Notes under the pieces: model-generated
The model's database searches: none
Told to the model about the DNA's origin: nothing
The model's input: only the letters and a program-made list of their open reading frames with translations
DNA from: a virus
Strand: one strand, 5' to 3'
UHGV virus genome: UHGV-1689020
DNA length: 18,879 bases
Shown here: piece after piece, positions 208 to 8,195 of the stretch
Layout: each line of letters begins with the position of its first letter
Position numbering within the stretch: the stretch's first letter is position 1
Made by a program: the position numbers and the translations under genes

Positions 208-2121
208 ATGAGCAAAGTAAAAATCGGTGAATTAATAAACTCACTTGTTAGCGATGTTGAGTCAATAGATAACTCTGACCGTCCTCAAGGGGAAAAAACA
301 AAAAAAATAAAGGCTGTTGCATTAAAATTTAAAAATGCATTATTTAATGATAAGCGAAAGTTTAGGGGGAAAGGATTAGAAAAAAGAATTACAGCCAACA
401 CCTTCAATGCCTATATGAGCAGGGCCAGAAAACGGTTTGATGATAAACTTCATCATAGCTTTGAAAAAAATATACATCGCCTATCTGAAAAGTATCCTTT
501 ATATAATGAGGAGCTATTGTCATGGCTTTCTCTACCTGCTGCCGATATTCGCCAGAGAATGTCAGCTTTACAGGCAAAATTAAAATTAATTCTCCCTTTA
601 TCAGAAGATTTATCTAATATCAGAATTGGTGATAACAAAAGTCATAATAAGTTATTAAAATTATCAAATAAATATAAAGAGTGGCAATTCGCCATATCTG
701 ATTTAACTAGCGATAACTGGAAAGATAAGCGCGATTATTTATATAAATTACTACAGCAAGGATCTGCCTTACTTGAGGAGTTGAATCAGCTAAAAGTTAA
801 CCATGAGATTCTCTATCATCTTCAACTAAGCCCTGCCGAACGCGCATCTATCCAGCAACGATGGGCGGACGTTCTGCACAATAAGAAACGTAACGTGGTG
901 GTCATTGATTACCCTAAATATATGCAAGCTATTTACGATATTATAAATAGCCCTGCTACATTAAATAATCTAAACACTCGTTCAGGTATGGCTCCTTTGG
1001 CATTTGCACTTGCTGCATTGTCAGGAAGACGAATGATTGAGATTATGTATCAAGGTACATTTACTGTTTCTGGTAAGTATACCGTTGATTTTTTAGGCCA
1101 AGCAAAAAAAAGAACTTCTGATGATATAACCAGAAAAATATATACATTATGCGAAGCAAAAACATTTGTTTATTTAATAAATGTACTTCGCTCATGCCCA
1201 GCAGCATCTGATTTTGATGATGTCGTTAAAGGTTATGGAGATAACGACACACGCTCTGAAAACGGACGGATTAATGCCATATTAGCAAAGGCTTTTAACC
1301 CGTGGGTTAAATCATTTTTCAAAGATGACCGCCGTGTTTATAAAGATAGTCGTGCTATTTATGCCCGTATTGCGTATGAAATGTTTTTCCGCGTAGATCC
1401 TCGTTGGAAAAACGTAGATGAGGATGTTTTCTTTATGGAAATTTTAGGCCATGACGATGAAAACACTCAATTACACTATAAGCAATTCAAGCTGGCCAAC
1501 TTCTCAAAGACATGGAGGCCAAATACTGGAAACGAAAATACCAGGCTGGAAGCATTGCAGCAGCTTGATGACGAAATGCCAGGATTCGCCAGAGGAGATG
1601 CCGGGGTTCGTCTGCATAACACAGTTAAGCAGCTGGTAGAGCATGACCCCTCTATAAAAATCACGAACAGCACTCTAAGAGCATTCAAATTTAGCCCTAC
1701 AATGATTAGTCGATACCTGGAATTTGCTGCTGATGCTCTGGGGCAATTTGTTGGCGAAAATGGACAATGGCAGCTGAAAATAGATTCTCCAGAAATCGTT
1801 ATGCCTGACGAAGAAGAGCTGGAAGCAATACCTGAACAGACGGATGAATTATCAGAGGATGACGATCTGGATGACGACGAAATTGAGATAGAGGAAGAGG
1901 AAGAGGAAGAGGAAGAGGAAGAGGAAGAGAGCGTAGAAGAACAGCAACCGCCCGCGCCTTCTTCACCTGTATCTAAGCCGGTATTTAAGCCTGTGAGAAA
2001 TATTGGTGATGGCTCATACGTTGTTGAGTTTCATTATAATGGCCAGAATTATGCTTGGTCCGGCAGTGCAAACAGCCCTATATCAGCAATGCAGTTAGCA
2101 TGGCTGACATATTTCGGATAA
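208..2121 (+). CDS. telN: protelomerase (telomere resolvase), N15 TelN-like
   Basis: 637-aa ORF; N-terminus MSKVKIGELIN...FNDKRKFRGKGLEKRITANTFNAYMSRARKRFDDKLHHSF and long internal stretches match my recollection of N15 TelN nearly residue for residue; acidic C-terminal linker; AGGAGAGG Shine-Dalgarno before the ATG; adjacent to the telO-like palindrome. Confidence 0.93.
   Translation: MSKVKIGELINSLVSDVESIDNSDRPQGEKTKKIKAVALKFKNALFNDKRKFRGKGLEKRITANTFNAYMSRARKRFDDKLHHSFEKNIHRLSEKYPLYNEELLSWLSLPAADIRQRMSALQAKLKLILPLSEDLSNIRIGDNKSHNKLLKLSNKYKEWQFAISDLTSDNWKDKRDYLYKLLQQGSALLEELNQLKVNHEILYHLQLSPAERASIQQRWADVLHNKKRNVVVIDYPKYMQAIYDIINSPATLNNLNTRSGMAPLAFALAALSGRRMIEIMYQGTFTVSGKYTVDFLGQAKKRTSDDITRKIYTLCEAKTFVYLINVLRSCPAASDFDDVVKGYGDNDTRSENGRINAILAKAFNPWVKSFFKDDRRVYKDSRAIYARIAYEMFFRVDPRWKNVDEDVFFMEILGHDDENTQLHYKQFKLANFSKTWRPNTGNENTRLEALQQLDDEMPGFARGDAGVRLHNTVKQLVEHDPSIKITNSTLRAFKFSPTMISRYLEFAADALGQFVGENGQWQLKIDSPEIVMPDEEELEAIPEQTDELSEDDDLDDDEIEIEEEEEEEEEEEEESVEEQQPPAPSSPVSKPVFKPVRNIGDGSYVVEFHYNGQNYAWSGSANSPISAMQLAWLTYFG
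1891..1929 (+). repeat. (GAGGAA)n hexanucleotide tandem repeat encoding the poly-Glu tract of TelN
   Basis: six and a half perfect tandem GAGGAA units, translated as the E-run in ...EIEIEEEEEEEEEEEEEESVEE. Confidence 0.9.
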
Positions 2122-2132
2122 AGCATACGGTA

Positions 2133-2165
2133 AAGGCACCGAATTATCGGTGCCTTGTTGTGTGG
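2133..2165 (+). terminator. rho-independent terminator candidate after telN
   Basis: AAGGCACCGA-ATTA-TCGGTGCCTT, a 10-bp perfect stem with 4-nt loop, 12 nt after the telN stop, followed by GTTGTGTGG (T/G-rich, not a clean U-tract). Confidence 0.55.
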
Positions 2166-2166
2166 T

Positions 2167-2331
2167 CTACCTCGCCTGCCCCTTTTCGTCCTCATCCAAC
2201 TTTCTGATGGCCGTAGAATCAATACCCGCCGCCATACACACATCAGATGCAACAAACCACGGTTCGCCGTTAATCATCACTACACGAACCTGATGCTCTT
2301 CCTGAAAGGAAAAGACTGCTAACGCGCTCAT
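2167..2331 (-). pseudogene. truncated Bro-N/KilA-N domain antirepressor-like ORF (54 codons)
   Basis: hand translation of the minus strand gives MSALAVFSFQEEHQVRVVMINGEPWFVASDVCMAAGIDSTAIRKLDEDEKGQAR*; the F.F....VR....GEPWFVA.DV...G motif is the N-terminal signature of Bro-N antirepressor domains, but the ORF stops mid-domain; AAGGAGG upstream; its ATG overlaps the stop of the upstream ORF (ATGA); below the length cut-off of the supplied ORF track. Confidence 0.5.
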
Positions 2332-2561
2332 TCAGCCTCCTTATCGTGCAGCAATTGCGACGAGAGCGATGCTGAATAACCCTGTGCTTCGTGTGTTAGC
2401 TCACACGCAATTTGAAGGAGTTTCCCTGCTTCTGAGAGATAAATCGACGCCTCACAACTGGAGATTGTCCGATGGGCTGATGATACGAGCGCATAGACCT
2501 GAGCCAGACGTTCATCCAACGATTCCAGCAGGCCAACAGTGTTCATTTTTACCTGATTCAT
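2328..2561 (-). CDS. hypothetical small helical protein, middle gene of the anti-immunity-type operon
   Basis: 77-aa ORF; GAGGTGG upstream of the ATG; ATGA overlaps with both neighbouring ORFs indicate translational coupling. Confidence 0.55.
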   Translation of the reverse strand: MNQVKMNTVGLLESLDERLAQVYALVSSAHRTISSCEASIYLSEAGKLLQIACELTHEAQGYSASLSSQLLHDKEAE

Positions 2562-2722
2562 GCAGCCACCTCGCGCACCGGAATACGGGCAGACAATACC
2601 AGGACAAACCGGCTGGCGAACTGGCGACGAGCTTCCCGTTCAGATGACGCGATGGTGGAAAGATGATGGATGTGTGACTTTTTGTCTGTGCGAACGATTG
2701 CCGCAAATTTGAATTTGAACAT
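2558..2722 (-). CDS. small basic protein, possibly Icd-like (first gene of the anti-immunity-type operon)
   Basis: hand translation MFKFKFAAIVRTDKKSHIHHLSTIASSEREARRQFASRFVLVLSARIPVREVAA* (54 aa); GGAG 9 nt upstream of the ATG; stop overlaps the ATG of the next ORF; not in the ORF track (below cut-off); the Icd assignment is from position and faint similarity recalled from memory only. Confidence 0.45.
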   Translation of the reverse strand: MFKFKFAAIVRTDKKSHIHHLSTIASSEREARRQFASRFVLVLSARIPVREVAA

Positions 2723-2770
2723 GGTATGCACTCCGTTTAATTGGTCGTGCTACCACCAGAGTTCCTACGC

Positions 2771-2940
2771 TCTATATGGCGGTAGCCCAGACGGGGGTAG
2801 GAATACCGGTAAACGAAGAAACCGGCCAGCTAAAAGCTGCCCCATCTGAGCCACCATAAATTTGGTGTACGCAGATTTTACACACAAAAAAACACGCTGG
2901 CGCGTGTTGTGCGCTTCATTTACTCGGGTTCCTACGCCCG
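2771..2940 (-). ncRNA. candidate C4/CI/CA-like antisense regulatory RNA and leader region
   Basis: on the minus-strand transcript, GGGCGUAGGAACCC (from + 2926-2939) and GAGCGUAGGAAC (from + 2761-2772) are direct repeats flanking UUCCUACCCCC (from + 2793-2803), which is complementary to both (10/11 and about 9/11); an intrinsic terminator lies between the first repeat and the complementary element; exact RNA ends unknown. Confidence 0.3.
2881..2908 (-). terminator. rho-independent terminator inside the leader of the anti-immunity-type operon
   Basis: minus-strand reading AACACGC-GCCA-GCGTGTT followed by TTTTTTTGTGTG (7-bp GC-rich stem, 4-nt loop, U-tract). Confidence 0.55.
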
Positions 2941-2967
2941 GCTACGGGATTTACCGTAGCGGAGTAA

Positions 2968-2997
2968 ACTTTACCGTCAAAACGACGCGCACGTCAA
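2968..2997 (-). promoter_or_regulatory. candidate sigma70 promoter for the leftward anti-immunity-type operon
   Basis: minus-strand TTGACG (from + 2992-2997), 18-nt spacer, TAAAGT (from + 2968-2973); -10 is weak, so the call is tentative. Confidence 0.3.
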
Positions 2998-3016
2998 TAA
3001 TTTGCAAAGACATTTT

Positions 3017-3036
3017 ACCCCGTGACCAGTCACGGG
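3017..3036. promoter_or_regulatory. palindrome family B copy 1 (CCCCGTGAC-CA-GTCACGGGG), operator-like site upstream of the candidate promoter
   Basis: 20-bp 9-2-9 palindrome; its core CGTGAC-NN-GTCACG recurs at 7574-7587 and 14960-14973; lies between the stop of the 3099-3386 gene and the candidate -35. Confidence 0.6.
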
Positions 3037-3098
3037 GACAGGTGTTTTTATAGTTTGCTTGAACGAGTGATCAGAAGTTGATCGTTAATCAAAGGCCA

Positions 3099-3386
3099 TT
3101 ATTGATTAAGAGATTGGAAATACCTAACTAACTTACCGGCATCATCACATTTTTCTTTATCTTCGTCCTTAACATAGCCGCGACAAAAGGCTGAATAAAA
3201 TTTTGCATTTTCAGAAGCAAAAGCAGCCGTCGAAAGGAGCAGCTCTTTGCATGACTCTTTTGATGCAGCATCGGGATTATTTTTACATGCAAGGTCCGCT
3301 GATGAGTTAATAACAGAAATGCTATCTTCCTGGGCATAAACCGCAGCAGAAAAGGCAAAACATAAAACAAAAATAAAACTCTTCAC
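3099..3386 (-). CDS. small secreted or periplasmic cysteine-containing protein, function unknown
   Basis: ORF in track as 3099-3410; preferred start is the GTG at 3384-3386, preceded by AGGAGA at about 7 nt; predicted signal peptide MKSFIFVLCFAFSAAVYA then QEDS...; mature part of about 76 aa with 4 Cys. Confidence 0.6.
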   Translation of the reverse strand: MKSFIFVLCFAFSAAVYAQEDSISVINSSADLACKNNPDAASKESCKELLLSTAAFASENAKFYSAFCRGYVKDEDKEKCDDAGKLVRYFQSLNQ

Positions 3387-3413
3387 TTTATCTCCTGTAA
3401 CAGTCATCACAAT

Positions 3414-3809
3414 TCAATCAACTTTTTTAGCATCAGCCATACGATTCAACCAGAAATCAACAATCGGTTGCTCATCTACAGAATGTTTACCAGGTATAAC
3501 TCGCCAGCTATCTTGCGAAAATCTGCCGTACTTACGCGGGAATAGGCCTTTCTTTATCTCCCGCCATGTACTAGGAAAACCATCCACAAAAGTACCAATT
3601 AACAGGAGAGGGACAAAAATCAGAGCTACAAACCATCGTGCAATAAAGTGTTCAACAACAACATTTTCACCGTTGTAGTAATACGCATACGCATCCAATA
3701 TGCGAATTTTCCTTACCTTAAAAATAGCCTTATGCTGAGAACGACTTAACTTGATACGAATGTATCCCTTATCCAAAGGGGATTCGTATTTGTATGATTG
3801 AACAGCCAT
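3414..3809 (-). CDS. single-pass membrane protein, function unknown
   Basis: ORF in track as 3414-3821; preferred start is the ATG at 3807-3809, just after the upstream stop; one hydrophobic helix WFVALIFVPLLLIGTFV flanked by basic residues. Confidence 0.55.
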   Translation of the reverse strand: MAVQSYKYESPLDKGYIRIKLSRSQHKAIFKVRKIRILDAYAYYYNGENVVVEHFIARWFVALIFVPLLLIGTFVDGFPSTWREIKKGLFPRKYGRFSQDSWRVIPGKHSVDEQPIVDFWLNRMADAKKVD

Positions 3810-3811
3810 TT

Positions 3812-4141
3812 TTAACCCCACTCACCATCAGCAAACAAAGCGTTATACTCTGATAATGGTAAATGATGCCCCTCAATTGCCAGATTAAGCCCCAAACGGG
3901 TAGATGGGTGTTCCTTATCTGGCTCCTCCTCCCACAATTCAGAAGCTAAAGAAGCTAAACGCTCAGCCGCTTTCACGTAGTTTTCTGTCCTGAACCAACC
4001 CAAATTAATCCCACCATCAGTGATCGCCCAAGCTACTTTCTTCTCTTCTTCCTGAATAGCCTTAATGCGTCGATCGCATTCATCCCGGCAGAACTGCAGC
4101 TGACGGTAATCAAGTTTGTCTAAAAATGCAGTCGTCGACAT
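3812..4141 (-). CDS. hypothetical acidic cytoplasmic protein
   Basis: 109-aa ORF; GGGGAG 9 nt upstream of the ATG; first gene of a tight three-gene minus-strand cluster downstream of repA. Confidence 0.6.
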   Translation of the reverse strand: MSTTAFLDKLDYRQLQFCRDECDRRIKAIQEEEKKVAWAITDGGINLGWFRTENYVKAAERLASLASELWEEEPDKEHPSTRLGLNLAIEGHHLPLSEYNALFADGEWG

Positions 4142-4199
4142 ATTCTTACTCCCCGTTCACCGAAAAATCACGATTTCCACATACGATAATATCCACTGA

Positions 4200-7100
4200 T
4201 TACCCAAAGAAAGCGCCCTGCTCTTCGTAGCTGCATGAGCTATTCCCCGTAATGTATTCACGTAACCGCCGCAGCTCATTGCTGGAAAGGTGATCCATGA
4301 ACTCTGTGAGGTACAGAGATGCAAACGTCATAGCTATGCTGGCTGATGACCATGATGACATAGTGGCCAACTCCTCACTGGAAAGCGCACTCATCGCCCA
4401 GGACTCAGGTACAGCCACTGGCAACACGGCCAAAGCCTCAGAAATTACTGAATGAGGGGCGTTTTGAACCTGCTCGTTTGTGGATCGCGTTTTATCATCC
4501 ATATATATATTGAGATCCAAATCGCGATCCATTTCGATGGCTGTCTTCTCGGCTTTACGCGTTTTTAGGGTTAGGCCATCTTTCTGACGCTGAACAAGAA
4601 TATCCAGCATAAATGCCGCTGATTCAGGCTCAACAAAACGCAAGGTTGGACGCTTATCGCCGTCTCTGCCGCGACGTTTACCTGTTTTAAGGCCAAGAGA
4701 GTCGCAAATGTTTTTAAACAACGCTTCCGGCACTTTAGGCTTCCCTTTTGGCGTCATAAAACCACCAATGTGCAGAACGTTATTCAACAGGTCACGGCGT
4801 TCGGCTGTCATGAGGTTATCTCGAGCGAATTTGAGACGCTCCTGAGTCGCCTCGCCGGTCATAGTCTCAGGGTTGATACCGCAGTCGATAAAGTACTGCC
4901 GGAGAGTTGCTGATTTAAGCGCATAGAAACCGCGCGCCCCGACTTCAACAGTAGGAGTAGCTTTTACCTTGTGATCGATTATTCCAGGGAATTTAGTTTT
5001 AAAGACATCATCAGCCTGCTCGCGAGTCATCGCGGTCACTACAAAATATTGCCACTGTCCCGCCTGACGGTATGCGTAGGTAAAATTGATGGCTGCTTCT
5101 TCCCGGTCGTAACGACGAGCTGTTACCTCATCTAAAAGCATTGTTTCATAGCGGCGAACTTTGTCTCGAGCACCATCGAAATAGAATTTCAGCGTGCCTT
5201 CTTCAACCGGTAGTTTCAGTTCGTTTTCAATATCCCAGCGGACAAGTTTTGCCTGTTCTTCAAGCGTCAGCGCGCGTTTTTTTAGCAGTTTTTCACGCTC
5301 TGATTCTTGTGGAGTTTCTGTATTGAGGTGCAGATCCAGTGTCTGTTCCCACACAATATCCCGCGCTTCTTTACGCAGATCTTTACCGATATCATTCGCA
5401 GCATAATCGGTGGCCAGCGGTGATACCTTATAACCGTCGCTGTGCATGATGCAGATCATGTTGCTGGCGTAGTCGTTACGCGCAGTCGCTTCAATTGCGG
5501 CTGCTTTAATTTTCATCCTGGTAAAGTCGGTATTGGCCACCCCCATTGATATACGGTCGCCATCGAAAACGACATCCGTAAGTTCACCGTTCATACCTGC
5601 GGTAGCAAGCAATGCCTGGGCGAATGCTCGTTCTATTTTTTGCGGGTCAGTTTCACGTTTTGCACGAGCTTTATCAAAGCCGATAATAAATTCTTTTGCT
5701 GTACGGTCGCGGCGTAGCATTTGCACTGCGTCGCTGGGTACAACTTCACCACAGAACATGCCGAAATGACGGTCAAAATGTTTTTGCTCAATCGACACGC
5801 CGGATGAAATAGACGGGCTATAAATCAGGCCGTCGTATTTTTTGACCATCTTTTTCGGTTGATTGGTAAATGCTTCAACTTCTGGCTCTGGTTTGTTTTT
5901 CTGGTTTACACACAGAAATTTCTTACCAGGAAAATGCATTCTCAGGGTGGCTGTCACATCTTCTGCAAAGGTGGAGCTGTCGGTGGCCAACATGATTTTT
6001 TCGCCATCCGATACAGCTTTCACCACCTCGGTCATGATGCGATCTTTTTCTGTATAAAAAACCCGGATTGGCTCACCTGTTTCGCGGTTGCGAACATCAA
6101 CAGGTAATTCAATTACGTGGATCTGCAGCCATGCCGGTAAACCTAGTTCTTCACGGCGTTTCATAGCCAGTTCAGCCAGGTCAACCAGCAGATCGTTCGC
6201 ATCAGCATCCACCATTATTGGGTGTTGTTCCGTTCTGGCCAGCGCGTCAATTAGCGTATTGAATACAGCCACTGGGTTTTCCATAGCCCGACCGGAAAGA
6301 ACGGCACGTAGCCCTTGTGTGGCCTCGTCAAAGCCAAAATAGTCGTGCTGGCGCATCAACGGTTGCCAGCAGTTTTTAACAATCGAGTTTATGCAGATGG
6401 TCAGTTTACTGGCGTATGGAGCCATTTCCTGATAGCCAGGGTCCTGATAGTGCAGGATATCGGCTTTTACACCTTTTCCTTCTGTCATCATTTCCCACAG
6501 GCCACCAATAAGGGAGACACGGTGAGCAACAGAGATACCACGTTCTGAGCTATGCATTAACGGTCGTAACAATCCAGTAGATTTGCCGGAACCCATACCA
6601 GCACGGACGATGACTATCCCCTGTAGTGATTGCACGTACTTCAGGAGATCATCGGTCATTACCGAAGTTTCAAAACGCTTATAGGTGATATGTTGAGGGC
6701 GTTTATTGGGATCAGTTATGCGTTCGCTGAAAGAGCGCGGAGCCTGGGCAATACGGCACTTTTTATTCAGGCGACGGGCAATGTGGTCTTTTACCGTAGC
6801 GCGATAGATATTTTCCAGTCCCATTTCACGCAGAACGATGCAGAACATGTTAAATAAATCTGACGGACTGTTAGGAACCGGGCAGGTTAGCATGCCAATA
6901 TCCACCGCTCTCAGCAGCTCTTTGGCAAAAGTACGACGGTTATCCCGCTTAATTGTCTTCAGGCGGTTGAGCGTCAGAGATAGCAAATCAGTACCGGTTT
7001 TCAGGCGGTTTGCTGTTGCAAATAGTTGACGTGCTGTTTCACGAAGTCCACGTAGTTTGTGCAGGTCGTTGAAGTCACTGCACTCCATTTGCGGATCGTC

Positions 7101-8195
7101 TTCAAAAGTTGGATAGACGCAGCGGACATCGTTGAATTTCGATAAGATTTCATAGCCAGTCCGCAGGCCGGTATTCCCTTTTCCTTCTGTGGCAGATTTC
7201 CGGTCATTATCCAGTGCGCAGGTGATTTTTACCGCCGGGTACATGTTTACCAGTTGTTCCACAACATGAACCATGTTGTTAGCGGATACAGCGACAACCA
7301 CAGCGTCAAAGCGTTTATCTTTTTTCGTGGCAAGCCAGATGGATGCACCAGTAGCAAAACCTTCTGTAACAGCGATGTTTTGCGCCCCTTTCAGCTCACC
7401 GATAACAAAGCAGGCACCGACGAAATCGCCGCTGGTTACTGCGCTGGTCTGGTATTTCCCACCTTGTTTGTCGATTCGCTGCCAACCCACAATACGACCA
7501 TCGTAACGACCGTCCAGGTGAGCCAGAGGGATAGCCATATATGTGGTTGGTCCCCGACTCCATTTCGCACTGTCGTGACTGGTCACGCGACGCACATCAC
7601 ATGAACTAAAAACGTCACGAATACCTTTTTTAATCGCATATGGCCATGAGCCGTCTTCAGCCGGAGCATGTTCCCACGCGCTGTGGAATGCCAGCCATCC
7701 CAGCAAACGTTCATGGTCCATTTGGTTGTTTTTCAGGTCATTAATTCGTTTTTGTTCTTCACGGCGACGACGTGCTTCGGCCTGACGTTCTATTCTTTCC
7801 CGTTCTTCTTCCGGTTGTGCGACCACGGTCGCATTATTCCGTTGTTGCTCACGGCGATATTCAGAAAACAGGAAGGAGAAACCGCTCCATGAGCCAGCAT
7901 CGCTGCCTTTATGGACGAAGTTAATGAACGGGTAATCAATCCCTTTGCTGTGTTCCAGCCGGGAGTAAATTTCTACGCGTCCTTTCAGGCTCTTTTCGAG
8001 AGCTTCTGGAGATGTTTTATTGTATGAAGAGTAACGCTCAACCCCCCCGCGAGGGTTGAGTTGGATGTTGTCGGAACAGGCAGGCCAGTTGATACCAGCC
8101 ATCTGTGCCAGCTCGGTTAGTTCATCCCGTGCTGCTTCAATTAGCGAGAACGGATCGCTGCCAAAGCGATCCGCATAGAAATCGTTTAATGTCAT
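4200..8195 (-). CDS. repA: multifunctional replication protein RepA (primase-helicase), N15 RepA-like
   Basis: 1331-aa ORF; Walker A motif GMGSGKST in the central part; size, orientation and position between telN and cB match N15 repA as I recall it (about 1300 aa). Confidence 0.88.
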   Translation of the reverse strand: MTLNDFYADRFGSDPFSLIEAARDELTELAQMAGINWPACSDNIQLNPRGGVERYSSYNKTSPEALEKSLKGRVEIYSRLEHSKGIDYPFINFVHKGSDAGSWSGFSFLFSEYRREQQRNNATVVAQPEEERERIERQAEARRRREEQKRINDLKNNQMDHERLLGWLAFHSAWEHAPAEDGSWPYAIKKGIRDVFSSCDVRRVTSHDSAKWSRGPTTYMAIPLAHLDGRYDGRIVGWQRIDKQGGKYQTSAVTSGDFVGACFVIGELKGAQNIAVTEGFATGASIWLATKKDKRFDAVVVAVSANNMVHVVEQLVNMYPAVKITCALDNDRKSATEGKGNTGLRTGYEILSKFNDVRCVYPTFEDDPQMECSDFNDLHKLRGLRETARQLFATANRLKTGTDLLSLTLNRLKTIKRDNRRTFAKELLRAVDIGMLTCPVPNSPSDLFNMFCIVLREMGLENIYRATVKDHIARRLNKKCRIAQAPRSFSERITDPNKRPQHITYKRFETSVMTDDLLKYVQSLQGIVIVRAGMGSGKSTGLLRPLMHSSERGISVAHRVSLIGGLWEMMTEGKGVKADILHYQDPGYQEMAPYASKLTICINSIVKNCWQPLMRQHDYFGFDEATQGLRAVLSGRAMENPVAVFNTLIDALARTEQHPIMVDADANDLLVDLAELAMKRREELGLPAWLQIHVIELPVDVRNRETGEPIRVFYTEKDRIMTEVVKAVSDGEKIMLATDSSTFAEDVTATLRMHFPGKKFLCVNQKNKPEPEVEAFTNQPKKMVKKYDGLIYSPSISSGVSIEQKHFDRHFGMFCGEVVPSDAVQMLRRDRTAKEFIIGFDKARAKRETDPQKIERAFAQALLATAGMNGELTDVVFDGDRISMGVANTDFTRMKIKAAAIEATARNDYASNMICIMHSDGYKVSPLATDYAANDIGKDLRKEARDIVWEQTLDLHLNTETPQESEREKLLKKRALTLEEQAKLVRWDIENELKLPVEEGTLKFYFDGARDKVRRYETMLLDEVTARRYDREEAAINFTYAYRQAGQWQYFVVTAMTREQADDVFKTKFPGIIDHKVKATPTVEVGARGFYALKSATLRQYFIDCGINPETMTGEATQERLKFARDNLMTAERRDLLNNVLHIGGFMTPKGKPKVPEALFKNICDSLGLKTGKRRGRDGDKRPTLRFVEPESAAFMLDILVQRQKDGLTLKTRKAEKTAIEMDRDLDLNIYMDDKTRSTNEQVQNAPHSVISEALAVLPVAVPESWAMSALSSEELATMSSWSSASIAMTFASLYLTEFMDHLSSNELRRLREYITGNSSCSYEEQGAFFG
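4481..4531. other. candidate replication origin element inside the 3' part of repA
   Basis: 9-bp inverted repeat TGGATCGCG ... CGCGATCCA flanking a 33-bp AT-rich spacer containing (AT)5 and three GATC sites within about 50 bp; the N15 ori is reported to lie within the 3' end of repA (recalled from literature). Confidence 0.35.
7574..7587. repeat. palindrome family B copy 2 (CGTGAC-TG-GTCACG), inside repA coding sequence
   Basis: exact 14-bp core shared with 3019-3034 (inverted centre) and 14960-14973. Confidence 0.6.
7818..7833. repeat. palindrome family A copy 1 (TGCGACC-AC-GGTCGCA), sopC/centromere-like, inside repA coding sequence
   Basis: 16-bp 7-2-7 palindrome identical to copies at 10261-10276 (inverted) and 16787-16802; differs from the F sopC SopB site TGGGACCACGGTCCCA (recalled) at one position per arm. 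Confidence 0.65.

What the first reader, a model, noticed from the sequence alone, without database searches (positions are those of the whole stretch)
3099..4141. Three-gene accessory operon between repA and the anti-immunity locus: cytoplasmic, membrane-anchored and secreted small proteins
Three tightly packed minus-strand genes encode an acidic 109-aa protein, a single-pass membrane protein and a signal-peptide protein with 4 Cys. None resembles a replication, regulatory or structural phage protein that I recognise. The compartment spread and position in a phage-plasmid resemble superinfection-exclusion or defence cargo, or an envelope-modifying moron.
Basis: inference. Interest (0 to 1): 0.55.

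Follow-up and report, generated by a model that had tools for sequence, protein, structure and literature searches.

The report
Swappable cargo genes after N15 repA
Three real but uncharacterised small genes follow the replication gene of an N15-like linear phage-plasmid; one is a conserved backbone gene and the other two (a membrane protein and a secreted mini-protein) are separately swappable cargo in the slot where related Klebsiella phages carry bacteriocin genes, so this is an ordinary cargo locus of unknown function.

Summary
Three tightly packed minus-strand genes lie at 3099-4141. A is 109 aa, acidic and cytoplasmic. B is 131 aa with one TM helix (true start ATG 3809). C is 95 aa (true start GTG 3386), with a Sec signal peptide and 4 Cys in the mature part. 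All three are under purifying selection.

They are not a self-contained operon or a single system. A belongs to the N15 gp35 family, conserved across Escherichia, Salmonella, Citrobacter and Klebsiella telomere phages. B and C are rare, E. coli-restricted cargo genes that also occur without each other. They fill the variable slot between the gp35-family gene and a conserved palindrome plus the Pa promoter of the c4/icd/ant locus. In Klebsiella phage NAR688 this same slot carries the lysogen-expressed telocin and immunity genes.

Distant C relatives are stand-alone morons in lambda-like tail modules. A close GenBank relative labels C "Spackle", but the only similarity to T4 Spackle is in the signal peptide.

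C models as a four-helix periplasmic protein with no known fold relative. No Pfam, NCBIfam, PADLOC or PDB match exists for any of the three.

My best guess, unproven, is that B and C are lysogen-expressed envelope proteins that protect or exclude. This is a new member of a known kind, of modest interest.

The parts
4200..8195 (-). repA (N15 gp37-type replication protein). It lies directly upstream and is the probable source of transcription for the three genes.
   Evidence: 1331-aa ORF. Annotated as primase or replication protein in PhiR46_1, YDC107_1 and N15. The consensus scan found no promoter or terminator between repA and A.
3812..4141 (-). Gene A: 109 aa, acidic and cytoplasmic. It belongs to the N15 gp35 family (phrog_10878), a conserved backbone gene of N15-like telomere phages. 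Function unknown.
   Evidence: 63% identical to N15 gp35. 32 clusters from E. coli, Salmonella, Citrobacter and Klebsiella on 45-59 kb contigs, with 35 invariant columns. dN/dS about 0.1. No Pfam, NCBIfam, PADLOC or PDB hit.
3414..3809 (-). Gene B: 131 aa, basic, single-pass membrane protein (phrog_15458). Cargo gene restricted to Escherichia N15-like elements. The C-terminal motif DSWRVIPGKHSVDEQPI is invariant.
   Evidence: Start at ATG 3809 follows homologues and the PHROG match. Alignment A4. dN/dS about 0.27. B occurs without C in YDC107_1 and E. albertii pEA8_3. No relation to N15 gp33 or to any PDB chain.
3576..3647 (-). Predicted transmembrane segment of B, roughly residues 55-78. Topology is undetermined.
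   Evidence: Kyte-Doolittle 19-residue maximum of 2.27 at residues 60-78. Both tails are about equally basic, with 10 versus 11 K+R.
3099..3386 (-). Gene C: 95-aa precursor (phrog_26765). It is Sec-secreted, giving a 77-aa mature periplasmic protein predicted to be a four-helix bundle with four invariant Cys (mature C16, C28, C50, C62). It behaves as a stand-alone moron family.
   Evidence: Start and signal peptide. Remote relatives P0050, P0053 and P0054 keep the signal peptide and the 4 Cys. AlphaFold2 model with pLDDT 84.4 and pTM 0.63, four helices. Genomic contexts. dN/dS 0.1-0.26.
3333..3386 (-). Coding region for the signal peptide of C (MKSFIFVLCFAFSAAVYA, cleavage after VYA). This is the only part with any similarity to T4 Spackle.
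   Evidence: hhalign of the C family against T4 Spackle aligns residues 1-16 only. BLASTP of the full proteins gives E = 42.
3018..3037 (.). Perfect palindrome CCCCGTGAC-TG-GTCACGGGG inside a conserved block. It marks the right border of the cargo slot. It may be a terminator hairpin for the repA-A-B-C transcript or a protein-binding site upstream of Pa.
   Evidence: The core is present in 17 fetched N15-like loci that carry five different cargo genes. Sequence conservation across cargo types resumes about 45 nt upstream of it. It forms the main hairpin in the RNA fold of this stretch, z = -2.1.
2968..2997 (-). Pa-like sigma-70 promoter of the anti-immunity (c4/icd/ant) operon. It marks the start of the neighbouring locus.
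   Evidence: TTGACG-18-TAAAGT was the only promoter-like site found in 2000-4600. It is conserved across loci.
2775..2973 (-). c4-a1b1/isrK leader, Ta terminator (2891-2908) and C4 antisense RNA. This is the P1/N15-type secondary immunity region that bounds the finding.
   Evidence: Rfam hits RF03163, RF01394 (62.5 bits) and RF01695 (73.6 bits). Terminator scan.

Best explanation
The interval is the promoter-distal end of the repA transcription unit of an N15-like (Ravinvirus-type) linear phage-plasmid. It is a mosaic, not one system.

Gene A is a conserved backbone gene of the N15 gp35 family. It probably serves the element's own plasmid or phage biology; its role is unknown.

Genes B and C are two independently exchangeable cargo genes. 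B is a single-pass inner-membrane protein. C is a Sec-exported 77-aa four-helix protein, probably disulfide-stapled. They occupy the variable slot between the gp35-family gene and a conserved palindrome plus the Pa promoter. In Klebsiella telomere phages this slot carries telocin:immunity cassettes that are expressed in lysogens.

Shown here: gene structure, purifying selection, slot borders, modular distribution, and the lack of any Spackle homology.

Inferred: B and C are made in the lysogen by read-through from repA and act at the envelope. The most likely role is protecting the lysogen. They could do this by interfering in the periplasm or inner membrane with DNA entry of superinfecting lambda-like siphophages, or by neutralising a periplasm-acting lytic effector. 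B and C would each act on its own rather than as a complex with A.
For: Structure and reality of the genes.

A is a backbone gene:
- 63% identical to N15 gp35.
- 32 clusters across four genera, with dN/dS of about 0.1.
- Present in N15, NAR688, KpLi5 and an Enterobacter phage.

B and C are cargo:
- Only 7 and 9 protein clusters respectively, all E. coli.
- The cassette occurs in 17 of 72,556 PLSDB plasmids and in 12 of 5,426 complete E. coli genomes, always on plasmids, mostly about 46 kb.

Modularity:
- A-B without C (E. albertii and E. fergusonii plasmids; the slot in E. albertii pEA8_3 holds a 270-aa gene).
- gp36-B with a 74-aa gene (YDC107_1).
- A with a 72-aa gene (pS142-3).
- C retained after a gp36'-'B deletion (L022).
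- A C-like gene in the same slot of a distant N15-like element that has no A or B homologue (L007).
- Divergence is discordant: dS for A is about 1.4 against dS below 0.09 for B and C in the same pair of elements.

Slot identity: NAR688 has the order RepA, gp48, gp49 (the A homologue), ImmA, TelA, Icd, AntA, AntB, TelN. ImmA and TelA were among only nine phage proteins detected in the lysogen proteome (PMC12042878).

Slot right border: conserved across five cargo types.

C as a moron: relatives lie between tail genes I and J of lambda-like phages, with a lipoprotein gene and terminators, and between antirepressor genes and the tape-measure gene of another siphophage.

C's compartment: the signal peptide and 4 Cys are invariant, and the model is a confident four-helix bundle.

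No promoter or terminator was detected between repA and C.
Against: - There is no direct evidence of expression or of any phenotype.
- No defence-family, Sie-family or structural match exists.
- The promoter and terminator scan is a crude consensus search, so internal promoters cannot be excluded.
- In NAR688 the A homologue and RepA were not among the detected lysogen proteins. Expression of this region by read-through from repA is therefore not demonstrated.
- B's topology is ambiguous.
- B and C are adjacent in most carriers, so a B-C functional link is not excluded.
- Several public copies of C are frameshifted. These could be sequencing errors, or they could indicate weak selection.
Confidence: 0.45

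Rival explanations
1. C is a Spackle-type protein, as a close GenBank relative (PV340565, XSB42745.1) is labelled. On this reading it is a periplasmic inhibitor of the tail lysozyme of superinfecting T4-like phages and is homologous to T4 Sp.
For: The PhiR46_1 record calls the 95%-identical protein 'Spackle exclusion protein'. The gross properties are similar: both are Sec-exported, about 75-77 aa when mature, acidic (pI 4.8 versus 4.6) and helical.
Against: - BLASTP of C against T4 Sp gives E = 42.
- phmmer against the PDB, which holds Spackle structures, finds nothing.
- T4 Sp matches phrog_1586, whereas C matches phrog_26765 and phrog_21025 and not 1586.
- hhalign of the C family against Sp aligns only signal-peptide residues 1-16.
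- Sp has 2 Cys and C has 4.
- All 898 tblastn hits to Sp in the phage collection were listed under T4-type hosts or organisms, and none of the listed hits was N15-like.
Confidence: 0.05
2. B and/or C are orphan immunity proteins, or remnants of a bacteriocin cassette, that protect the lysogen against toxins acting in the periplasm or inner membrane. This would mirror the telocin:immunity cargo of the same slot in Klebsiella telomere phages.
For: [quoted passage not shown] Small periplasmic or membrane-anchored immunity proteins are a known class (established knowledge: Cmi, Pim and Tai/Tsi proteins).
Against: - There is no toxin gene in the window's slot.
- No telocin homologues were found in Escherichia or Shigella N15-like elements (bioRxiv 10.1101/2025.09.12.675607).
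- B has one TM helix, not the 3-4 typical of pore-former immunity proteins.
- There is no sequence or fold similarity to any immunity family.
- C relatives sit in tail modules of lambda-like phages, not next to toxins.
Confidence: 0.12
3. A, B and C form one cooperating three-component system, with a cytoplasmic sensor or regulator, a membrane effector and a periplasmic partner. This is a novel defence or abortive-infection operon.
For: The genes are tightly packed on the same strand, with spacers of 2 nt and 27 nt. The A-B-C arrangement recurs in 17 plasmids and at least 9 viral contigs.
Against: - Each gene occurs without the others.
- A is conserved in elements that carry quite different cargo, including N15 and NAR688.
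- There is a sharp recombination break between A and B.
- There are no PADLOC hits.
Confidence: 0.07
4. B and C serve the element's own life cycle or the host's fitness rather than exclusion. Examples are lysis timing or envelope remodelling during virion release, plasmid maintenance, or a Bor/Lom-like lysogenic-conversion trait such as serum resistance, adhesion or stress tolerance.
For: The location is downstream of repA. The proteins are envelope-localised like lambda Bor and Lom, whose genes also lie in or beside the late gene region (established knowledge). Purifying selection is seen. In lambda-like phages C pairs with a lipoprotein gene.
Against: A core life-cycle role is unlikely given the patchy distribution among otherwise near-identical elements, which replace these genes with unrelated ones. 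repA alone suffices for N15 replication (established knowledge; Mardanov & Ravin 2006, not re-checked here). There is no similarity to holins, spanins, Bor or Lom.
Confidence: 0.2

Closest known systems
Telocin:immunity locus of Klebsiella telomere phages (NAR688 TelA/ImmA; PMC12042878)
   Same: The genomic slot is the same: after RepA and the gp35-family gene, and before the Icd/AntA/AntB anti-immunity operon and the protelomerase gene. The slot is variable between otherwise related phages. At least in NAR688 its products are expressed in the lysogen, and one of them is an inner-membrane protein.
   Different: There is no bacteriocin gene here. B and C share no similarity with TelA-E or ImmA. 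B has 1 TM helix against 4 in ImmA. No telocin has been detected in Escherichia or Shigella N15-like elements.
N15 genes 33-36 (gp35 in particular)
   Same: A is a gp35 homologue (63% identity) in the equivalent position downstream of repA. N15 gp33 is also a small protein with one hydrophobic segment at the promoter-distal end of the block.
   Different: B and C have no N15 counterpart. hhalign of B against gp33 gives probability 0.3%. N15 carries gp36, gp34 and gp33 instead. All of these remain functionally uncharacterised.
T4 Spackle (Sp, gp61.3; phrog_1586)
   Same: Both are small, acidic, helical, Sec-exported periplasmic phage proteins. This is a plausible functional analogy: a periplasmic blocker of an incoming phage's cell-wall-penetration step.
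   Different: There is no homology outside the signal peptide. The Cys pattern differs and there is no fold match. The carriers are temperate siphophages and phage-plasmids rather than T-even phages.
Envelope-targeted morons and superinfection-exclusion genes of lambdoid phages (HK97 gp15, Cor, lambda Bor/Lom)
   Same: Distant C relatives sit as self-contained insertions inside lambda-like tail operons, between I and J, together with a lipoprotein gene and terminators. B is a single-pass membrane protein, like HK97 gp15 (established knowledge; the paper is cited).
   Different: There is no sequence similarity to any of these proteins, and the function is untested. In the window the genes lie in the plasmid-maintenance arm, not in the tail operon.

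Membership tests
T4 Spackle family (phrog_1586) | Sequence or profile similarity of the mature domain to T4 Sp | tested here: not met
   BLASTP E = 42. C does not hit phrog_1586, while T4 Sp hits it at 1.8e-46. hhalign aligns only signal-peptide residues 1-16.
T4 Spackle family (phrog_1586) | Fold similarity to solved Spackle structures | tested here: not met
T4 Spackle family (phrog_1586) | Binds and inhibits the gp5 tail lysozyme, and excludes T-even phages | not testable with these tools
   Needs biochemistry and plating assays.
N15 gp35 family (phrog_10878), for gene A | Full-length sequence similarity to N15 gp35 | tested here: met
   63% identity over 108 aa, E = 5e-49. phrog_10878 E = 2e-42 over the full length.
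N15 gp35 family (phrog_10878), for gene A | Position downstream of repA in a telomere phage-plasmid | tested here: met
   Holds in N15, PhiR46_1, NAR688, pS142-3, E. albertii pEA8_3 and the window.
Telocin:immunity cassette | Located in the slot between RepA and the gp35-family gene on one side and the Icd/Ant operon on the other | tested here: met
   Searches compared.
Telocin:immunity cassette | Presence of a bacteriocin-like toxin gene with a cognate multi-TM immunity gene | tested here: not met
   The slot holds only B (1 TM) and C (secreted, 77 aa). Neither has a Pfam or PDB colicin or immunity match.
Known anti-phage defence systems (PADLOC-DB) | HMM match to any component model | tested here: not met
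   No hits for A, B or C at E <= 1, and none for the alternative cargo genes of the slot.
Moron (autonomous accessory gene inserted in a phage genome) | Present or absent between otherwise collinear relatives, with sharp borders at gene boundaries | tested here: met
   Homology in elements that lack C stops 13 nt upstream of C's start codon. The right border is conserved across five cargo types. C relatives are inserted between tail genes I and J.
Moron (autonomous accessory gene inserted in a phage genome) | Own promoter and terminator, with expression from the prophage | tested here: inconclusive
   The consensus scan found no promoter upstream of A, B or C. A hairpin/palindrome follows C, but it has a poor T-tract. 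Terminators do follow the lambda-like C+lipoprotein pair. No expression data are available.

The most novel reading that the evidence does not exclude
C, together with its relatives in phrog_26765 and phrog_21025, could be a previously unrecognised class of periplasmic, disulfide-stapled four-helix superinfection-exclusion factor. All carriers seen so far are siphophages with a lambda-type tail tip. C would block the periplasmic step of genome delivery by related phages, for example by binding the ejected tape-measure protein or the NlpC/P60-JAB tail-tip protein K. That would make it a functional analogue of Spackle that evolved independently. B might be a separate inner-membrane exclusion protein.
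Probability: 0.2. Interest if true: 0.6.

Novelty: new member of a known kind. Interest (0 to 1): 0.3.

Why it matters
The work has four practical consequences.

1. It fixes the boundaries of a cargo slot in Escherichia N15-like telomere phages: the gp35-family gene on one side, and a conserved palindrome plus Pa on the other. In Klebsiella this slot carries bacteriocin weapons.

2. It shows that the slot holds at least five different uncharacterised cargo genes. That gives a compact set of candidates for lysogenic-conversion or exclusion screens.

3. It corrects a misleading public annotation ("Spackle") that could spread to other records.

4. It identifies a small family of secreted four-Cys helical proteins that hop between N15-like plasmid arms and lambda-like tail operons.

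None of this changes current understanding. The functions remain unknown.

Tried and rejected
Family and structure searches that found nothing:
- Pfam, NCBIfam and PADLOC scans of A, B and C gave nothing significant. A Pfam scan of all C-family members found no family shared by members, and the weak DUF2385 hit (E = 0.12) appeared in only one member.
- PDB sequence and profile searches for C, A and B gave nothing below E = 0.09.
- The single-sequence AlphaFold2 model of C was poor (pLDDT 62), and its Foldseek search was meaningless.

Tests of specific ideas, all negative:
- Spackle homology.
- B related to N15 gp33.
- The 'gp35' detected in the NAR688 lysogen proteome being the A homologue. 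NAR688's gp35 is a RelE/ParE toxin, and the A homologue is gp49, which was not detected.

Searches for more relatives or literature:
- A genome-contig scan for C relatives found none, and the metagenome scan added nothing new.
- Literature searches for PhiR46_1, for ECOR13 prophages and for exclusion in N15 found nothing on these genes.
- The alternative cargo genes of the slot (270, 74, 72, 115 and 63 aa) and the lambda-like lipoprotein had no Pfam or PADLOC hits.

Not done: the two structure-prediction jobs were both spent on C, so no models of A or B were made.
Full report
**Context.** The window is the plasmid-maintenance and immunity arm of an N15-like (Ravinvirus-type) linear phage-plasmid.
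- A protelomerase gene lies at 208-2121 (+), and a 1331-aa repA at 4200-8195 (-).
- The closest phage record is Escherichia phage PhiR46_1 (PV340565), 92% identical over 2100-4300. N15 itself matches only the secondary-immunity segment.
- Just below the finding, Rfam places the c4-a1b1/isrK leader at 2887-2973 and the C4 antisense RNA at 2775-2861.
- A Pa-like promoter sits at 2968-2997 and the leader terminator at 2891-2908.

**Observation.** The three ORFs exist and the outer coordinates are exact.

| Gene | Coordinates (minus strand) | Size | Main features |
|---|---|---|---|
| A | 3812-4141 | 109 aa | pI 4.8, no hydrophobic segment |
| B | 3414-3809 | 131 aa | pI 9.8, one hydrophobic helix near residues 55-78 |
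| C | 3099-3386 | 95 aa | signal peptide MKSFIFVLCFAFSAAVYA\|QED, 77-aa mature protein with four Cys |

- B should start at ATG 3809, not GTG 3821. All homologues and phrog_15458 begin there.
- C should start at GTG 3386, five bases after an AGGAG, not GTG 3410.
- These points rest.
- The spacers are 2 nt (A-B) and 27 nt (B-C).
- These are genuine genes. Nei-Gojobori dN/dS is about 0.1 for A, about 0.27 for B at the informative pair, and 0.10-0.26 for C.

**Gene A is a backbone gene.**
- It is 63% identical to N15 gp35.
- It belongs to a family of 32 clusters from E. coli, Salmonella, Citrobacter and Klebsiella, found on 45-59 kb contigs, with 35 invariant columns.
- tblastn finds it in N15, PhiR46_1, KpLi5, Kpn_R1, NAR688 and an Enterobacter phage.
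- It has no Pfam, NCBIfam, PADLOC or PDB relative.
The homology is clear, but gp35 has no established function.

**Genes B and C are rare cargo.**
- B has 7 clusters and C has 9 among 5.8 billion proteins, all from E. coli. Several of the C clusters are frameshifted versions of the same gene.
- The cassette is in 17 of 72,556 PLSDB plasmids and in 12 of 5,426 complete E. coli genomes. It is always on plasmids, mostly about 46 kb.
- The genes assort independently, as shown below.

| Element | Gene content after repA |
|---|---|
| Window, PhiR46_1 and nine viral contigs | A-B-C |
| E. albertii pEA8_3 | A-B, then an unrelated 270-aa gene |
| YDC107_1 | gp36-like, B, then a 74-aa gene |
| pS142-3 | A (99% identical to the window's A), then a 72-aa gene |
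| L022 | a 31-codon fusion of the gp36-like start to the B end, then intact C |
| L007 (a much more distant N15-like element) | a 115-aa ORF unrelated to A or B, then a 43%-identical C-like gene just upstream of Pa |

- Divergence is discordant. Between the window and PhiR46_1, A has dS of about 1.4, while B has 0.02 and C has 0.09. There is therefore a recombination junction at the A/B boundary.
- The 'three-gene operon' is a mosaic and not a functional unit.

**The slot.**
- In elements that lack C, homology to the window stops 13 nt upstream of C's start codon.
- Downstream, conservation across five different cargo genes resumes 10-20 nt after each cargo stop codon. The conserved block contains a perfect palindrome, CCCCGTGAC-TG-GTCACGGGG (window 3018-3037), directly upstream of Pa. 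The palindrome core is present in 17 fetched loci.
- The palindrome forms the dominant hairpin in the RNA fold of this stretch. It may terminate the repA-A-B-C transcript or bind a protein. This is inference.
- The same slot is documented in Klebsiella telomere phage NAR688. My ORF map of CP072507 and the paper's Table S1 give the order RepA (gp47), gp48, gp49 (the A homologue), ImmA (gp50), TelA (gp51), Icd-like, AntA, AntB, protelomerase (PMC12042878).
- In that study ImmA and TelA were among only nine phage proteins detected in the lysogen proteome. Related phages carried other telocin cassettes, or none, at the same place.
- A 2025 preprint on clinical Enterobacteriaceae found no telocin and no complete defence system in Escherichia, Shigella or Salmonella N15-like elements. 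In these hosts the slot is filled by uncharacterised genes like B and C.

**What C is.**
- An exhaustive HMMER search of 1.84 billion representatives found three true remote relatives (P0050, P0053 and P0054; 36-42% identity).
- All three keep a Sec signal peptide, the four Cys, and a D-K...C-x-D motif. They bridge phrog_26765 to phrog_21025.
- Their contexts are telling:
  - P0050 and its variants lie between tail genes I and J of lambda-like phages. A 137-aa lipoprotein gene (phrog_6823) and two terminator-like hairpins follow them.
  - P0054 lies between Arc/Bro-N/ORF6N antirepressor genes and the tape-measure gene of another siphophage.
  - P0053 is the L007 case listed above.
- With this small but diverse alignment, AlphaFold2 gives a confident model (pLDDT 84.4, pTM 0.63) of four helices at residues 4-15, 22-40, 43-53 and 56-75. 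Mature C16 follows helix 1; C28, C50 and C62 lie in helices 2, 3 and 4. The disulfide pairing is not determined.

**The 'Spackle' label.** PhiR46_1 annotates its 95%-identical protein as 'Spackle exclusion protein'.
- I confirmed the T4 Sp sequence against the phage collection (100% identity to orf 61.3/sp).
- Four tests were negative:
  - BLASTP gives E = 42.
  - There is no PDB sequence hit.
  - T4 Sp belongs to phrog_1586, which C does not hit.
  - hhalign of the C family against Sp aligns only residues 1-16, MKSFIFVLCFAFSAAV against MKKFIFATIFALASCA, which is the signal peptide.
- The label most likely arose from that signal-peptide similarity.
- Functional analogy remains possible, since both are small, acidic, helical periplasmic proteins. 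Family membership is rejected.

**What B is.** B is a basic single-pass membrane protein with an invariant C-terminal motif DSWRVIPGKHSVDEQPI.
- It is unrelated to N15 gp33 and to anything in the PDB.
- Both tails carry similar numbers of K+R (10 and 11), so the topology cannot be called from sequence.

**Mechanism (inferred).**
- The consensus scan finds no promoter or terminator between repA and the end of C. The three genes are therefore most simply the distal part of the repA transcript. That transcript must be made at some level in the plasmid prophage, because RepA drives plasmid replication (established knowledge).
- The case for lysogen-expressed envelope factors rests on three points:
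  - B and C are targeted to the envelope.
  - They sit in a slot known to hold lysogen-expressed competition genes.
  - C relatives behave as morons.
- I favour protection at the envelope, at about 45% for the whole statement and less for exclusion specifically. This would mean superinfection exclusion of related siphophages or neutralisation of a periplasm-acting effector.
- Rivals are an orphan immunity function, a host-fitness conversion trait, a role in the element's own life cycle, and a true three-part system. The last is disfavoured by the distribution data.

**Verdict.**
- The locus is a new member of a known kind, namely accessory genes in a known variable locus of telomere phages.
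- Functions are unknown and there is no sign of a new mechanism. Interest is about 0.3.

Noticed in passing
window 4142-4215 (minus strand), compared with L001 4130-4321: The window carries only a remnant of a small gene. In PhiR46_1 this gene encodes 63 aa with a hydrophobic N-terminus, and its ATG overlaps the repA stop; NAR688 has an 86-aa version (gp48). Relative to PhiR46_1, 122 nt plus 8 nt are deleted and the ATG has become TTG.
   Followed up: yes
window 2167-2331 (minus strand): The AntB-type antirepressor (Bro-N) gene is truncated to a 54-aa N-terminal fragment. The full gene encodes 259-264 aa in N15, NAR688 and YDC107_1. PhiR46_1 has the same truncation, and L022 has the gene split into 55-aa and 176-aa pieces. 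The anti-immunity operon of this lineage may be partly decayed.
   Followed up: partly
window 3018-3037, with a conserved block extending to about 3080: A perfect 9+9 palindrome, CCCCGTGAC-TG-GTCACGGGG, lies just upstream of the Pa -35 element. It is conserved in 17 N15-like loci regardless of cargo, but it is not found in exact form in N15 or NAR688. A conserved GATCA-N6-CTGATCA motif with two Dam sites precedes it. It could be a terminator or an operator; this is unresolved.
   Followed up: partly
PV340565.1 protein XSB42745.1 (L001 3086-3373): The public annotation 'Spackle exclusion protein' for the C homologue appears to be spurious. The only similarity to T4 Spackle is in the first 16 residues, which form the signal peptide.
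   Followed up: yes
L004 4937-5723; L024 5001-5786; L025 4944-5730: In lambda-like phages the C-like gene is paired with a 137-aa lipoprotein gene (lipobox LLSGC, phrog_6823, glycine-zipper-like C-terminus). The pair sits between tail genes I and J and is followed by two terminator-like hairpins. This is a two-gene envelope moron of unknown function.
   Followed up: partly
window 3128-3370 (minus strand, alternative frame); proteins P0003, P0005, P0007, P0008, P0009: Several public 'homologues' of C are frameshifted readings that run into the overlapping 80-aa alternative frame (…LPFLLRFMPRKIAFLLLTHQR…). Many come from one series of human-blood E. coli plasmid assemblies (CP088xxx). They may be sequencing errors or real pseudogenes; I did not resolve which.
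   Followed up: partly
L022 4867-4975: One N15-like element has a 31-codon in-frame fusion of the start of a gp36-like gene to the last eight codons of B, directly upstream of an intact C. This is the footprint of a deletion that removed B but kept C.
   Followed up: yes
L013 1614-2426 (E. albertii pEA8_3): The same slot holds an unrelated 270-aa gene with no Pfam or PADLOC match. It is another uncharacterised cargo candidate.
   Followed up: partly
window 208-2121 (+), C-terminal part of the protelomerase: The protelomerase has a long acidic tract (…DDEIEIEEEEEEEEEEEEESVEE…) before its last ~50 residues. Related elements have a similar tract that varies in length.
   Followed up: no
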